Shown here in pieces: positions 840-54,742 of a stretch of 64,000 nucleotides of DNA. The position numbers and the translations under genes were made by a program. Numbering within the stretch: the stretch's first letter is position 1; each line of letters begins with the position of its first letter. The stretch comes from Candidatus Multivoradales bacterium. GTDB taxonomy: Bacteria; Acidobacteriota; Thermoanaerobaculia; Multivoradales; JAHEKO01. A model generated the notes under the pieces. That model was not told where the DNA came from. It ran no database searches and saw only the letters and a list, made by a program, of their open reading frames with translations. The stretch lies in assembly GCA_965223855.1 (NCBI GenBank), contig CBDCXM010000009.1, forward strand, positions 256,001 through 320,000, read 5' to 3'.

Positions 840-1280
840 TCAATGAGGCAGCGACGGGCGAAGCAGAGCGTAGACCCAGGTTCCAGCCAGCGCGCTGACG
901 AGCAGGACCCCCGCGCCCGCCACACCGTTGCCGAGCAGCGCGAAGATCGGGCCGGGGCAGGCGCCCGCCAGGCCCCATCCGAGGCCGAAGAGGCTGCCGC
1001 CGACGGCGTAACGGATGCCACGGCCCAGGACCTTGGGCGGCACCTCGATCGGATCGCCCGCGAGATCGGTGCCGACTCTCCTCTTGACGAGGGCGACGCC
1101 GACGGAGGCCACAGCGACGGCCGAAACGATCACCCCGTACATGTGGAAACTGTGAAAGCGGAACATCTCCTGGATCCGGTACCAGGAGATGATCTGCGAC
1201 TGCGTCGCCGTGACTCCGAACAGCACTCCCAGCAACAGGTACGGCACGAGGTTCGTCACCGTCGGTAGCTGCCGGTTCAT
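840..1280 (-). CDS. YeeE/YedE-family (DUF6691-like) sulfur-compound transporter subunit
   Basis: MNRQLPT...ISWYRIQEMFRFHSFHMYG...GGSLFGLGWGLAGACPGP; start overlaps the upstream stop (ATGA). Confidence 0.85.
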   Translation of the reverse strand: MNRQLPTVTNLVPYLLLGVLFGVTATQSQIISWYRIQEMFRFHSFHMYGVIVSAVAVASVGVALVKRRVGTDLAGDPIEVPPKVLGRGIRYAVGGSLFGLGWGLAGACPGPIFALLGNGVAGAGVLLVSALAGTWVYALLRPSLPH

Positions 1281-28813: not shown

Positions 28814-28982
28814 GGTTGGGGGGCTCCGGCGGCCTTCGGCCGGCTGGCCAGCAAGCTGGCCAGAGCGCCCGTGCTTCTGCTCGCCGGGCTTACCGCCCGG
28901 CGAAGGAGGGTTCGAATCCCTGCTTCGCTCGGTGAACTGTCGGGGGTAGGCGAAGGACTCAGCCGCAGCGAATCAACGTTCT
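28814..28982 (-). repeat. Single ~170-bp tRNA-Gln-linked structured module
   Basis: 16-bp inverted copy of the tRNA T-arm at 28908-28923; 10/11 copy of the tRNA 3' end (GGTTGGGGGGC vs GGTTGGGAGGC) 170 bp downstream; three GC hairpins. Confidence 0.6.
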
Positions 28983-29056
28983 TGGTTGGGAGGCAGGGAT
29001 TCGAACCCCGATTCCACGGGTCAGAGCCGTGTGTCCTACCATTGAACGACCTCCCA
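28983..29056 (-). tRNA. tRNA-Gln(CTG)
   Basis: TGGGAGGTCGTTCAATGGTAGGAC ACACGG CT-CTG-AC CCGTG GAATC GGGGTTCGAATCCCTG CCTCCCA ACCA. Confidence 0.95.
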
Positions 29057-37772: not shown

Positions 37773-38373
<601 letters not shown>

Positions 38374-50461: not shown

Positions 50462-52486
<2,025 letters not shown>

Positions 52487-52572
52487 CTCTCGCCAGTCCT
52501 CCCCCGACACTACGGCATCACCACCTCCGGGGTTCGGTCCCGCCGCAGCCGGCCGATACACTCAGCCGCCGC

Positions 52573-52662
52573 GGAGGGGTGGCTGAGTGGTCGAAAGCAC
52601 TGGTCTTGAAAACCAGCGACCGTGCAAGCGGTCCGCGGGTTCGAATCCCGCCCCCTCCGCCA
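52573..52662 (+). tRNA. tRNA-Ser(TGA)
   Basis: GGAGGGGTGGCTGAGTGGTCGAAAGCA CTGGT CT-TGA-AA ACCAG, long variable arm, GCGGGTTCGAATCCCGC CCCCTCC GCCA. Confidence 0.96.
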
Positions 52663-53237
52663 CCGAGGTTCGAGTCCGCATCTCGACGACGAGAGTTCTC
52701 ATCGAGCGGGATTCGAACCCGCCGTGAGCGAGCGGTGAGCGAGCGAACCGAGAACAACGGGCTCATCGGCCGGCGAAGCCGGACGACCGGCTTCCGAAGG
52801 AAGACGGGCCCCTCGAATCCCGCCCCCTCCGCCATTGAGGTTCGGACCGGCACTTCGACGACGATGGTTCTAGTCGAGCGGGATTCGAACCCGCCGTGAG
52901 CGAGCGGTGAGCGAGCGAACCGAGAACAATTGGGCTCCTTGGCCGGCGAAGCCGGACAACCGGCTCGCAACGCGAGACGGGCCCTCTAATCCCGCCCCCT
53001 CCGCCACTGAGGTTCGAGCCCGCATCTCGACGACGAGAGTTCTCGTCGAGCGGGATTCGAACCCGCCGTGAGCGAGCGGTGAGCGAGCGAACCGAGAACA
53101 ACGGGCTCATCGGCCGGCGAAGCCGGACGACCGGCTTCCGAAGGAAGACGGGCCCATCGAATCCCGCCCCCTCCGCCATTGAGGTTCGGACGCGCACTTC
53201 GACGACGACAGTTCTCGTCGAGCGGGATTCGAACCCG
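52663..53237 (+). repeat. Tandem array of three 172-bp tRNA-Ser(TGA)-linked modules plus a partial fourth
   Basis: Units 52663-52834, 52835-53006 and 53007-53178 each end AATCCCGCCCCCTCCGCCA and contain GCGGGATTCGAACCCGC; partial unit 53179-53237. Confidence 0.93.
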
Positions 53238-53242
53238 ATTCG

Positions 53243-54742
53243 TCACGAGCCCATTGGCGATGCCGATCCCCCGTCCTCGCAGAGTTTCTCCTGCGCTCGG
53301 ATCTCCACGAGATCCTCACGTGCTGCGAGATCCCAAGCCACGTCCCGACCCGCGAAGTAGTCGGAGGCTCTTGGTTGTACACAGAGGTGGATCGGAAGGA
53401 TCTTCGCTCGATCCGCCGGGTGCCCCAACTGCCAGTACAGCGTGGACACGACCAGCTCCAGCCGACCGCTCGGCAGCCTCAGCGAGATCGGATCGCCGTA
53501 GCTGTTCAACGGAGCACCGGGAGGCTCTCCCACGAAGACGGCGTCCGTGTGGTCGATGAGCTCGGCCACCAGCATGACGGCGGCGCTGAAGGTCTGGCGA
53601 CCGGTCAGCACGACGAGACGATTGTCGTTGGCGTACCTCGGCCTGGCCAGCAGCTCATTGACGAAGGCGGTCACCATCCGACCGTCGCCACCGAAGTTGT
53701 AACGCAGGTCGATGACGAACCGCTCCGGCTGCGCCCGATCGACCATGTCCCACATCCGGGCACGAAAGTCGTCCCAACCTATATCCCCGATGTCGGCGAA
53801 GAAGTTGAACTGGAACGTAAGGACTGTCTGAGCCTGATCCAGCCGTGCCCAGAAGGGCTTCCGGCTCGCGTAGAACGGCGCATCCTCTGCCGCCGGCGGG
53901 TCGCGGTAGGCCAGCGGAGGCTTGCCACCGTCAAACGGCGTCCTGTAGTTGTCGAAAGGCTCGAACGGCGGCCCGAAGAGCTCTCCCCAGTTTCTGTAGT
54001 TCGCCGAGTATTCGCTGTGGATCCTCGGCAGGCGACGGGTTTCGGTAGTGCCATCACCATGCTCGAAGGCGAGGGACACAGCGTCGGTCGACGGGTCCGT
54101 GACACCGAGGGCGGAGAGCAGCCCCACGTTTGAGAGGAGCGCAGCGGCGCCCTCTTTCACCTGAAGCGCGTTGTCGCCCGCCGTGGCCAGCGTGACCTTC
54201 GCGAGCACCTCCTCGACTGGTAGTTGCTCCACCCTTACCAGACGTCGACCGATGAGCTCGGCGTGTTGCTCTGCCGCGACCGTCACGTACACCCCGTCGT
54301 CAAACTCGTAGAAGCGCAATGGCAGCCAGACCGCAAAGCCGTCGATGCCGACCGGCTCGAGTCGAGTGTGGCCGTCACGAAGCCCCGCCACGGCCGACAT
54401 CAGGGTCGTAGTGATCTCGACATCCGAGCCACCCGCCAGGACGAGATCACGAGCTTCTTGCAGACCGTCACGCCAACGACCCTCGCCGGTCTGGAAGAAG
54501 GGATCCGGGTGATGCTCACGCAACAATCGATTCAGCGATTGGATATCCGCCATCCAGGCCTCCGCCGCGCTCGGCACGGCCTCGTCCACAGCCTGTGCTT
54601 GGCACGGCGAGGCAAGTGAAGGCGCCAGTACGAAAGGAATGGCGAAACGGAGCACCGGAAGACATCGGCCGCGAAGGATCCCGAGAGCCGTCTTCGCACC
54701 CAGACAAAGCAGTCCGGCGGTAGTCATCGTTGCAGATCGCAT
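53243..54742 (-). CDS. S41-like secreted peptidase
   Basis: LRDGHT, VIDLRYNFGGDG, GRQTFSAA, FVGEP; AGGAGG RBS; codon usage looks atypical for the window. Confidence 0.75.
   Translation of the reverse strand: MRSATMTTAGLLCLGAKTALGILRGRCLPVLRFAIPFVLAPSLASPCQAQAVDEAVPSAAEAWMADIQSLNRLLREHHPDPFFQTGEGRWRDGLQEARDLVLAGGSDVEITTTLMSAVAGLRDGHTRLEPVGIDGFAVWLPLRFYEFDDGVYVTVAAEQHAELIGRRLVRVEQLPVEEVLAKVTLATAGDNALQVKEGAAALLSNVGLLSALGVTDPSTDAVSLAFEHGDGTTETRRLPRIHSEYSANYRNWGELFGPPFEPFDNYRTPFDGGKPPLAYRDPPAAEDAPFYASRKPFWARLDQAQTVLTFQFNFFADIGDIGWDDFRARMWDMVDRAQPERFVIDLRYNFGGDGRMVTAFVNELLARPRYANDNRLVVLTGRQTFSAAVMLVAELIDHTDAVFVGEPPGAPLNSYGDPISLRLPSGRLELVVSTLYWQLGHPADRAKILPIHLCVQPRASDYFAGRDVAWDLAAREDLVEIRAQEKLCEDGGSASPMGS

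What the first reader, a model, noticed from the sequence alone, without database searches (positions are those of the whole stretch)
52663..53237. tRNA-Ser(TGA) array: exact 172-bp period, ABAB alternation and a compensatory hairpin swap
Seen: three units of exactly 172 bp, each ending ...AATCCCGCCCCCTCCGCCA with the CCA intact, plus a partial fourth. Units 1 and 3 are near-identical, and the starts of units 2 and 4 resemble each other, so there is a 344-bp higher-order repeat. Hairpin CTTCC-GAA-GGAAG in units 1/3 becomes CTCGC-AAC-GCGAG in unit 2: sequence changes, pairing is kept. Other elements are CCGGC-GAA-GCCGG, CTCGACGA...TCGTCGAG and the internal duplication GTGAGCGAGCG x2. GCGGGATTCGA can pair with the terminal TCGAATCCCGC to close a multibranch fold. 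Inference: structure is under selection, and each unit could be released as a CCA-ended RNA or act as a folded ssDNA recombination substrate.
Basis: partly seen in the sequence, partly recalled or inferred. Interest (0 to 1): 0.78.

Follow-up and report, generated by a model that had tools for sequence, protein, structure and literature searches.

The report
tRNA-linked repeat array after tRNA-Ser
The 172-base repeats behind this serine tRNA gene are an acidobacterial example of the "tRNA-linked repeats" known since 1978 from E. coli, structured trailer units that each end in a copy of the tRNA's own 3' end and whose function is still unknown.

Summary
tRNA-Ser(TGA) at 52573-52662 is followed by 3.5 copies of a 172-bp unit. 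Each full unit ends in the tRNA's last 19-22 nt with CCA. The array has an ABAB pattern and fully compensated stem changes.

It is a known kind of element. [quoted passage not shown] E. coli K-12 serX carries three full 181-bp units plus a partial fourth, and tyrV carries 178 bp x 3.1, which includes the rtT/rttR RNA.

In this genome all four tRNA-Ser genes carry such units, and tRNA-Gln(CTG) has a related unit with a degenerate end. Similar tRNA-Ser-linked units turn up in several phyla.

The Rfam RtT model aligns to all three units in register, but only at 15-19 bits against a cut-off of 45. Membership by sequence is therefore not shown.

The most likely mechanism is a co-transcribed trailer that is cut into CCA-ended structured RNAs. 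This is inferred from E. coli; no RNA data exist for this organism. I found no support for a single-stranded DNA recombination role.

Verdict: a new, divergent member of a known kind. Interest is modest.

The parts
52573..52662 (+). tRNA-Ser(TGA), 90 nt, CCA encoded
   Evidence: ARAGORN; Rfam tRNA 64.8 bits
52663..52834 (+). Repeat unit 1 (variant A), 172 bp
   Evidence: TRF period 172; unit comparison
52835..53006 (+). Repeat unit 2 (variant B), 172 bp. Differs from unit 1 by 20 mismatches and 4 gap columns.
53007..53178 (+). Repeat unit 3 (variant A). 4 differences from unit 1.
53179..53237 (+). Partial unit 4 (B-like spacer). It stops inside the inverted T-arm copy, 5 nt before the stop codon of a convergent ORF (53243-54742, minus strand).
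52813..52834 (+). Copy of the tRNA's last 22 nt (mid T-loop to CCA) at the end of unit 1. The same copy lies at 53157-53178 (unit 3). Unit 2 has a 19-nt copy at 52988-53006.
   Evidence: exact matches
52706..52722 (+). Inverted copy of the tRNA T-arm (GCGGGATTCGAACCCGC). Its first 11 nt form the 5' strand of the closing stem P1 with 52813-52823. Repeated at 52878-52894 and 53050-53066; 5' part only at 53222-53232.
   Evidence: P1 in the MFE folds; corresponds to the outer stem of the Rfam RtT consensus
52724..52748 (+). Hairpin H1: 10 pairs with two tandem G.A/A.G pairs and loop GGTGA. Repeated at 52896-52920 and 53068-53092.
   Evidence: covarying equivalents in related units
52767..52785 (+). 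Hairpin HB (contains CCGGC-GAA-GCCGG). Repeated at 52940-52958, where the base pair C-G has become T-A, and at 53111-53129.
52787..52807 (+). Hairpin HC (contains CTTCC-GAA-GGAAG). At 52960-52980 in unit 2 it reads CTCGC-AAC-GCGAG, two compensated pairs. Repeated at 53131-53151.
52682..52706 (+). Spacer hairpin CTCGACGA...TC(A/G)TCGAG. Perfect only in unit 3 (53026-53050); T.G at the outer pair in partial unit 4 (53198-53222). Mismatched in unit 1 and in unit 2 (52854-52878).
   Evidence: read from the sequence
37783..38373 (-). Second locus of the same kind in the window. tRNA-Ser(GCT) at 38282-38373 is followed by three units of a second subtype. Copies of the tRNA 3' end lie at 38123-38137 and 37952-37966, with a degenerate one at 37783-37798.
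   Evidence: RtT model in register at 38120-38233, 17.8 bits
28814..29056 (-). Third locus in the window. tRNA-Gln(CTG) at 28983-29056 is followed by one unit of the same subtype as the target array. It has an inverted T-arm at 28905-28923 and a degenerate end copy at 28814-28823.
   Evidence: fold z -2.7

Best explanation
This is an array of tRNA-linked repeats (TLRs), the class first seen downstream of E. coli tyrT and later catalogued at ten E. coli loci.

**Anatomy of each unit**
- a 40-45 nt spacer;
- an inverted copy of the tRNA's T-arm;
- three G+C-rich hairpins;
- a direct copy of the tRNA's 3' end, from mid T-loop to CCA.

**Proposed mechanism (inferred here, shown in part in E. coli)**
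1. Transcription from the tRNA-Ser promoter runs on into the repeats.
2. Each copy of the tRNA 3' end, held in the closing stem P1 with a free C-rich ...GCCA tail, is handled by the tRNA 3'-end processing enzymes. Endonuclease cutting just downstream is followed by trimming.
3. The tRNA and unit-length, CCA-ended structured RNAs are released.

**Array dynamics**
- The array grows and shrinks by unequal recombination between units.
- The ABAB order suggests that the last event copied a two-unit, 344-bp block.

What the released RNA does is unknown, as it is for E. coli TLRs. The mirroring of the host tRNA's T-arm and 3' strand suggests some form of tRNA 3'-end mimicry.
For: **Published hallmark is met.**
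- Here 19-22 nt are identical in 3 of 3 full units and there are 3.5 units.
- There are five loci in this genome. 4 of 4 tRNA-Ser genes have a copy matching at least 16 of 18 nt downstream; among the other 46 ARAGORN calls only a tRNA-Val pair scores, and that copy is the neighbouring gene itself.
- tRNA-Gln(CTG) carries a unit found by nhmmer at E 1.3e-5.

**Direct E. coli counterparts.**
- serX (tRNA-Ser GGA) is followed by exact 18/18 copies at +181, +362 and +543 and a partial fourth unit of about 61 nt. That partial unit ends at the start of the P1 5' strand; here the partial unit ends inside the inverted T-arm, just after that strand.
- tyrV has 178 bp x 3.1.
- The annotated 171-nt rttR ends at the CCA of unit 1.

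**Rfam RtT model.**
- It aligns full length (1-130) and in register, ending at the CCA, to all three units and to the first tRNA-Ser(GCT) unit.

**Structure.**
- Compensated changes; sense-strand z -2.2 to -3.0; covarying H1 and P1.
- Tandem G.A pairs in H1 echo a tandem GA motif reported for RtT from covariation (bioRxiv 10.1101/2020.02.04.933952, one passage).

**Wider occurrence.**
- A strict pattern scan of one genome per species gave 42 loci.
- 32 of them hold 39 units with an exact 19/19 copy of a tRNA-Ser 3' end.
- Record titles name Gammaproteobacteria, Acidobacteriota, Coriobacteriia, Chloroflexota and others.
- ARAGORN confirmed the tRNA-Ser directly at the first end copy in 9 of the 11 loci checked; in L061 it lies one unit further upstream and in L080 it is cut by the contig start.
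- 3 of the 8 loci scanned score 38-48 bits on RtT.

**Expression elsewhere.**
- RtT sRNA is reported as regulated in Thioalkalivibrio (PMC8092127, passage).
Against: - No RNA data exist for this organism, so transcription past the tRNA and release of units are untested.
- Sequence membership in Rfam RtT is not met. The units score 14.7-18.7 bits against a cut-off of 45. 0 of 45 genomes of the family are over the cut-off; the best is 24 bits. Common descent with E. coli TLRs, as opposed to convergence, is therefore not shown.
- By raw folding energy the antisense strand is slightly more stable in 29 of 47 units.
- Distal units decay. Examples are the third tRNA-Ser(GCT) unit here and point changes in the inverted T-arm of units 2 and 3 in a relative. 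This fits weak or no selection on every copy.
- One related unit has a P1 5' strand that matches another tRNA-Ser's T-stem and not its own (L097).
- Distribution is patchy. 8 of 300 genomes of the order match, all in one family; 0 of 255 match in the other eleven families. Only 3 of 11 evaluable tRNA-Ser(TGA) loci of relatives have a copy.
- No sigma-70-like promoter or intrinsic terminator was found by the simple scan.
Confidence: 0.75

Rival explanations
1. Selfish or mobile DNA. The units are miniature integrative elements, or scars of such elements, that recombine at the T-loop of tRNA genes with similar 3' ends. Each insertion duplicates the tRNA 3' end. Any RNA made is a by-product.
For: - The left edge of the repeated tRNA segment always lies in the T-loop, as at attachment sites of T-loop-type integrases (that class is recalled, not tested).
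- Distribution is patchy: 8 of 300 genomes, one family only; 3 of 11 orthologous loci.
- Units at different tRNA loci of one genome are as alike (74-87%) as units within an array (70-91%).
- Arrays of identical units exist (159 bp x 4.2, 100%).
- One unit has a donor-type P1 strand (L097).
- The target tRNAs share a similar T-loop plus a pyrimidine-rich 3' strand.
- Real islands with 61-63-nt tRNA-Ser(TGA) repeats occur in the same genus.
Against: - No recombinase family matched among the 8 neighbouring ORFs scanned.
- A 160-180-bp double-stranded circle is physically unfavourable (general knowledge).
- The right edge of the repeated segment varies: 6-61 nt past the CCA.
- Stems covary and include sense-strand G.A and G.T pairs. 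A pure DNA site does not need this.
- E. coli repeats give stable RNAs, and their 5S-linked members are reported as conserved in place in many Enterobacteriales.
Confidence: 0.12
2. Folded single-stranded DNA recombination substrate. The inverted T-arm and the end copy anneal in single-stranded DNA to mimic the tRNA gene's T-arm duplex for a recombinase, as in Xer-dependent phage integration.
For: - The inverted and direct copies are about 95 nt apart and form an 11-pair duplex identical in sequence to the tRNA gene's T-loop/T-stem region.
- GAA-type loops closed by C-G are stable in DNA hairpins (recalled).
Against: - There is no phage, plasmid, replication or recombinase gene at any of the loci inspected (sequences).
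- The same pairing is explained by the RNA model.
- No single-stranded replicon is known for E. coli repeats.
Confidence: 0.03
3. Decayed gene copies. The units are remnants of tandem tRNA-Ser genes, or of an inverted tRNA copy, with no function of their own. The structure seen is inherited tRNA structure.
For: - The antisense of some second-subtype units looks tRNA-like to the programs. ARAGORN calls a 'tRNA-Val(aac)' at C9:791116-791205 antisense to a unit and a 'tRNA-Lys' in L029.
- Rfam gives weak antisense hits: Tymo_tRNA-like 22.4 bits, tRNA 18.7, tRNA-Sec 21.9.
Against: - No tRNA is called in the three target units.
- Unit bodies share nothing with the 5' two-thirds of the tRNA beyond the T-arm copy (read).
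- The hairpins covary among units with no sequence conservation.
- The sense strand, not the antisense, exceeds shuffles.
Confidence: 0.05

Closest known systems
E. coli tRNA-linked repeats (TLRs), in particular the serX array and the tyrT/tyrV array that encodes rtT/rttR RNA (Rfam RF00391)
   Same: - They sit directly downstream of, and co-oriented with, a tRNA gene.
- Units are 172-181 bp, in 3.1-3.5 tandem copies ending in a partial unit.
- Every unit ends in the last 18-22 nt of its own tRNA, with CCA.
- An inverted, partly diverged copy of the T-arm lies about 100 nt upstream and pairs with that end (the outer stem of the Rfam model).
- In between lie G+C-rich hairpins with GAA/GAAG/GCAG loops.
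- There are several loci per genome.

   Different: - Sequence similarity is too low for the Rfam cut-off: 15-19 bits against 45.
- Here there is no intrinsic terminator in the spacer, whereas serX units have one.
- The inverted T-arm is intact here but altered in its loop in E. coli.
- The host is an acidobacterium.
- In this genome the repeats follow only tRNA-Ser and tRNA-Gln(CTG), and not the 5S gene.
RrA/RrB/RrF, the 5S-linked TLR small RNAs of E. coli rrn operons
   Same: - Their 3' end repeats the last 18 bp of the upstream stable RNA.
- They are made by read-through and processing.
- The repeat is proposed as an RNase E processing signal.
(PMC8144298, passages)
   Different: - They are linked to 5S rRNA and lie between two terminators.
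- They bind Hfq and CsrA through GGA motifs.
- No 5S-linked copy exists in this genome.
- The paper states that tRNA-linked members score below 0.01 as predicted CsrA binders.
Direct repeats of tRNA 3' segments left by integrative elements (attL/attR; cis-mobilizable elements)
   Same: Copies of a tRNA 3' segment lie downstream of an intact tRNA gene, and the left edge falls in a tRNA loop.
   Different: - Those repeats flank kilobases of element DNA with an integrase.
- Such islands do occur at tRNA-Ser(TGA) in the same genus, with 61-63-nt repeats starting in the anticodon loop.
- Here the repeats are 172 bp apart, with no coding capacity and covarying hairpins.

Membership tests
tRNA-linked repeats (TLRs) as defined for E. 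coli (PMC8144298, citing Egan & Landy 1978 and Rudd 1999) | Located in a tRNA (or rRNA) operon, immediately downstream of the stable-RNA gene | tested here: met
   The array starts inside the tRNA's T-loop and runs on directly on the same strand. Operon membership, meaning co-transcription, is not tested.
tRNA-linked repeats (TLRs) as defined for E. coli (PMC8144298, citing Egan & Landy 1978 and Rudd 1999) | 18-19 bp at the repeat's 3' end identical to the 3' end of the upstream tRNA | tested here: met
   22, 19 and 22 nt are identical in units 1-3.
tRNA-linked repeats (TLRs) as defined for E. coli (PMC8144298, citing Egan & Landy 1978 and Rudd 1999) | One to five repeats per locus, several loci per genome | tested here: met
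   3.5 units here. Five loci in the genome: four tRNA-Ser and one tRNA-Gln.
tRNA-linked repeats (TLRs) as defined for E. coli (PMC8144298, citing Egan & Landy 1978 and Rudd 1999) | Transcribed with the stable RNA and processed to a discrete RNA | not testable with these tools
   No RNA run holds the stretch. In E. coli, rttR is annotated as ending at the unit's CCA.
Rfam RtT RNA (RF00391) | Score at or above the curated gathering cut-off (45 bits) | tested here: not met
   14.7, 18.7 and 17.6 bits for the three units. 0 of 45 genomes of the family are over the cut-off. Gammaproteobacterial tRNA-Ser-linked units reach 38-48 bits.
Rfam RtT RNA (RF00391) | Outer stem between a purine-rich 5' segment and the T-loop/T-stem part of the tRNA-end copy, leaving a free ...CCA tail | tested here: met
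   The model aligns 1-130 in register, ending at the CCA. The stem is present in the MFE folds.
Integrative-element attachment-site repeats at tRNA genes | Integrase or other recombination genes between or beside the repeats | tested here: not met
   Units are 172 bp. None of the 8 ORFs scanned between 50.4 and 61.9 kb matched a recombinase Pfam family; four had no Pfam match at all.
Tandem tRNA genes or tRNA pseudogenes | Cloverleaf detectable in each unit | tested here: not met
   ARAGORN and Rfam find only the one tRNA in 52573-53237.

The most novel reading that the evidence does not exclude
tRNA-linked repeats may be an old, cross-phylum class of structured RNAs rather than an enterobacterial curiosity. 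They would be built to mirror the T-arm and 3' strand of whichever tRNA they follow. Here that means all four tRNA-Ser genes and tRNA-Gln(CTG); elsewhere tRNA-Tyr, Ser and Arg. Their C-rich CCA tail presented on a covarying scaffold would act as a mimic or decoy of the tRNA 3' end for some enzyme, toxin or sensor that reads tRNA ends. They would spread between tRNA genes with similar 3' ends.
Probability: 0.2. Interest if true: 0.65.

Novelty: new member of a known kind. Interest (0 to 1): 0.35.

Why it matters
The paper read here states that TLRs have had no known function since 1978. These findings place the same architecture in an acidobacterium, with intact covarying hairpins, at every tRNA-Ser gene. 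They also find tRNA-Ser-linked units under record titles from several phyla. That gives comparative material that E. coli alone cannot give: which parts are constant (tRNA-end copy, inverted T-arm, closing stem, first hairpin) and which are free. My four literature searches found only gammaproteobacterial reports of these repeats (E. coli, Thioalkalivibrio, and by search listing Klebsiella, Erwinia, Salmonella). The library lacks most subscription journals, including Rudd 1999, and supplements were closed. For genome annotation, such arrays should be labelled as tRNA-linked repeats and not as integration scars or pseudogenes.

Tried and rejected
**Explanations tried first and rejected**
- Miniature attachment-site element or integration scar. 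This was my first reading after seeing units behind several tRNAs. I kept it only as a rival once the E. coli class was found.
- Antisense tRNA-like gene. Weak antisense hits exist, but antisense folds do not beat shuffles.

**Tests that gave nothing usable**
- Strand test by raw folding energy. The antisense was more stable in 29 of 47 units. This is confounded by the G-rich antisense tail, so it is not decisive.
- Automatic hairpin picking was noisy for gammaproteobacterial units and mis-registered H1 of the three target units. Only the clear stems were read by eye. No formal covariation statistic was computed.
- The MAFFT alignments are not structure-aware. Only the outer stem was recovered well. 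No covariance model was built.
- Sequencing runs: no RNA holder is listed. The four DNA runs are short-read contigs that break inside the array. One 'goes back 172' joint and one 'skips 562' joint have short or ambiguous sides and were not used.
- Promoter and terminator scan: nothing informative.
- 5S-linked repeat in this genome: none found.
- E. coli serT, serW, serU, serV and the gln-met-leu tRNA operon: no repeat by my 15/18 test, apart from neighbouring paralogous tRNA genes. The arg tRNA cluster next to serV does have repeats.

**Tools and texts not available**
- Boesl & Kersten 1991 (PMC329039) is not held. It, Boesl & Kersten 1994, Egan & Landy 1978 and Rudd 1999 are cited only as quoted in the passages and reference lists.
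- The supplements of PMC8144298, which list the E. coli loci, could not be seen.

Full report
**1. Observation**

- ARAGORN and Rfam place a 90-nt tRNA-Ser(TGA) at 52573-52662.
- Tandem Repeats Finder reports a single array at 52641-53237 with period 172, 3.5 copies and 87% matches. The array starts inside the tRNA's T-loop.
- The last 19 nt of the tRNA, CCA included, recur exactly at the end of all three full units. 22 nt recur in units 1 and 3.
- Units 1 and 3 differ at 4 of 172 positions. Units 1 and 2 differ by 20 mismatches and 4 gap columns in 174.
- The 59-nt partial fourth unit is closest to unit 2: 5 differences, against 10 vs unit 1 and 7 vs unit 3. The ABAB order is therefore real.
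- The exact 172-bp length of unit 2 rests on offsetting +1/-1 indels.
- In the own genome the unit matches by BLAST only at this locus.

**2. Structure**

Units 1 and 2 show no change at unit positions 40-94. That stretch holds the inverted T-arm, the first hairpin and the linker.

In the two downstream hairpins all 6 substituted stem positions form 3 complete pairs that stay Watson-Crick.
- In HC (the CTTCC-GAA-GGAAG hairpin): T-A>C-G and C-G>G-C.
- In HB (the CCGGC-GAA-GCCGG hairpin): C-G>T-A at its base.
- My arithmetic puts the chance of this near 2e-5.

The 'GTGAGCGAGCG x2' duplication is better read as a 10-pair hairpin, here called H1, with two tandem G.A/A.G pairs.

- Sense z-scores against dinucleotide shuffles are -2.7, -2.2 and -3.0.
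- The antisense strands give about -0.9.
- Raw energies alone slightly favour the antisense (29 of 47 units). I regard this as confounded by the G-rich antisense tail.

**3. The same thing elsewhere in this genome and its relatives**

An nhmmer profile of units found further copies in the own genome, which I then read.
- Three units follow tRNA-Ser(GCT), at window 38282-38373 on the minus strand.
- One unit follows tRNA-Gln(CTG), at window 28983-29056 on the minus strand.
- Two to three units each follow tRNA-Ser(GGA) and tRNA-Ser(CGA), about 470 kb away.
- Of 50 ARAGORN calls, only the four tRNA-Ser genes have a downstream copy matching at least 15 of their last 18 nt, apart from a tRNA-Val whose 'copy' is the neighbouring tRNA-Val gene.
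- Each unit ends in the 3' end of its own tRNA.
- There are at least two body subtypes, plus composites of both.
- Units at different loci are 74-87% alike, similar to units within an array (70-91%).

Among relatives:
- One genus has three 163-bp units behind tRNA-Ser(TGA), with a different body but the same layout.
- 3 of 11 evaluable tRNA-Ser(TGA) loci have an exact copy downstream.
- A strict pattern matched 8 of 300 genomes of the order, all in the window's family. It matched 0 of 255 genomes in the other families, and a reversed-pattern control gave 0.

**4. Across bacteria**

A strict pattern was scanned over one genome per species: tRNA-Ser 3' end, a 40-70 nt gap, the inverted T-arm, a 65-95 nt gap, then AATCCC.
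- It returned 42 loci.
- 32 of them hold 39 units whose end is an exact 19/19 copy of the local tRNA-Ser 3' end, although only 6 of those 19 letters were demanded. The other 10 loci have best copies of 9-17 of 19.
- Record titles name Gammaproteobacteria, Acidobacteriota/Thermoanaerobaculia, Coriobacteriia, Chloroflexota, an alphaproteobacterium and others.
- ARAGORN confirmed a tRNA-Ser directly at the first end copy in 9 of 11 loci checked. In L061 it lies one unit further upstream. In L080 it is cut by the contig start.
- In many of these units the spacer after the tRNA holds a canonical intrinsic terminator (by eye).

**5. Identification**

Scanning eight of those loci against Rfam gave hits to RtT RNA (RF00391) in three.
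- The hits score 48.2, 43.8, 42.5, 39.5 and 38.4 bits. The cut-off is 45.
- On the window the same model aligns full length and in register to all three units, ending at each CCA, but only at 14.7-18.7 bits.
- It also aligns to the first tRNA-Ser(GCT) unit at 17.8 bits.
- No genome of the family reaches the cut-off: 0 of 45, best 24 bits. Among 14 control genomes only E. coli does.

E. coli K-12 shows the prototype.
- tyrV is followed by 178 bp x 3.1.
- The annotated 171-nt rttR ends exactly at the first unit's CCA.

PMC8144298 (passages read) defines the class as tRNA-linked repeats.
- There are 22 at ten K-12 loci, one to five per locus.
- All have 18-19 bp at their 3' end identical to the 3' end of the upstream tRNA or rRNA gene.
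- The early claim of a role in starvation recovery was withdrawn, and there is 'no known function'.
- The 5S-linked members are transcribed by terminator read-through, processed, and bind Hfq and CsrA.
- The repeated end is proposed as an RNase E signal.

My own check of K-12 found a direct counterpart of the window array.
- serX (tRNA-Ser GGA) is followed by three 181-bp units plus a partial fourth.
- That partial unit ends at the start of the P1 5' strand. The window's partial unit ends a little later, inside the inverted T-arm.

**6. Mechanism**

Shown here:
- the anatomy;
- compensated stems;
- matching of each unit's end, and mostly of its P1 5' strand, to its own tRNA. At one P1 pair the 12 related units read A-U 6, U-A 4, C-G 1, with 1 broken.

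Shown in E. coli by others:
- a stable RNA equal to one unit;
- read-through and processing of 5S-linked members.

Inferred for this window:
- co-transcription with tRNA-Ser;
- cutting after each tRNA-end copy;
- release of CCA-ended structured RNAs;
- unequal exchange as the source of copy number and of the ABAB order.

Function is unknown.

Points against selection on every copy:
- decay of distal units;
- one mismatched P1;
- patchy distribution.

These points keep a selfish-DNA reading alive.

**7. Verdict**

The array is a real, well-structured tRNA-linked repeat array. It belongs to a known kind, but it is divergent in sequence and sits in a phylum where my searches found no description. 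The single-stranded DNA idea has no support.

Noticed in passing
window 51544-51629 (-): ARAGORN calls an 86-nt tRNA-Pro(tgg) inside a 699-aa ORF with SpoIIE and 7TMR-DISM domains. Rfam finds no tRNA there. It is probably a false call.
   Followed up: partly
L082 (G000:C9:789200-791500); window 37783-38281 (-): Units of the second subtype end in two mutually exclusive or pseudoknot-like helices (for example GTTCGCC..GGCGAAC overlapping CCGTTTGGC..GCCAAACGG). Both covary between copies. Composite units look like a first-subtype body inserted into a second-subtype unit.
   Followed up: partly
G000:C9:791116-791205 (+); L029 716-801 (-); L082 1765-1850 (+): The antisense strand of some units is called a tRNA by ARAGORN ('tRNA-Val aac', 'tRNA-Lys ctt'). 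Rfam gives weak antisense hits to tRNA-like families. Annotation pipelines may report spurious antisense tRNAs at such repeats.
   Followed up: partly
L034 (G003:C290), L037, L038 (G002): In the same genus, 61-63-nt copies of tRNA-Ser(TGA) running from the anticodon loop to the 3' end lie kilobases apart or at contig ends. A conserved inverted-repeat motif follows the CCA. These look like ordinary integrated islands at the same tRNA, distinct from the 172-bp repeats.
   Followed up: partly
L028 (G003:C17), about locus 1000-1100, minus strand: An orphan 3' half of a unit ends in a tRNA-Ser-like 3' end with one mismatch. No tRNA gene lies within 1 kb. The island-type post-CCA motif follows directly.
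   Followed up: no
L036 (G017), locus 190-620: A degenerate array of about 199 bp x 2.5 follows tRNA-Ser(TGA). The tRNA-end copies have drifted (under 15/18), and only the acceptor/T-stem part of the inverted copy is kept.
   Followed up: no
window 52564-52740 and loci L039, L041, L046, L056, L059, L069: The Rfam family sX4 (RF02223, a proteobacterial small RNA) matches tRNA-Ser plus the first part of the downstream unit at 35-47 bits (cut-off 70). That family's model seems to contain a tRNA-Ser and its trailer.
   Followed up: no
L111 (E. coli K-12 2816800-2819400): The argV-argY-argZ-argQ cluster next to serV has exact copies of the tRNA-Arg 3' end about 133-135 nt after tRNA genes. These are tRNA-linked repeats interleaved with the genes.
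   Followed up: partly
window 52663-52675 and the starts of units 2-4: Each spacer begins with GAGGTTCG(A/G), a T-loop-like GGTTCGA that could pair with the 3' half of the inverted T-arm (TCGAACC). In gammaproteobacterial and E. coli units a conserved GGTTCGAC lies after the inverted T-arm instead. Its role is unexplained.
   Followed up: no
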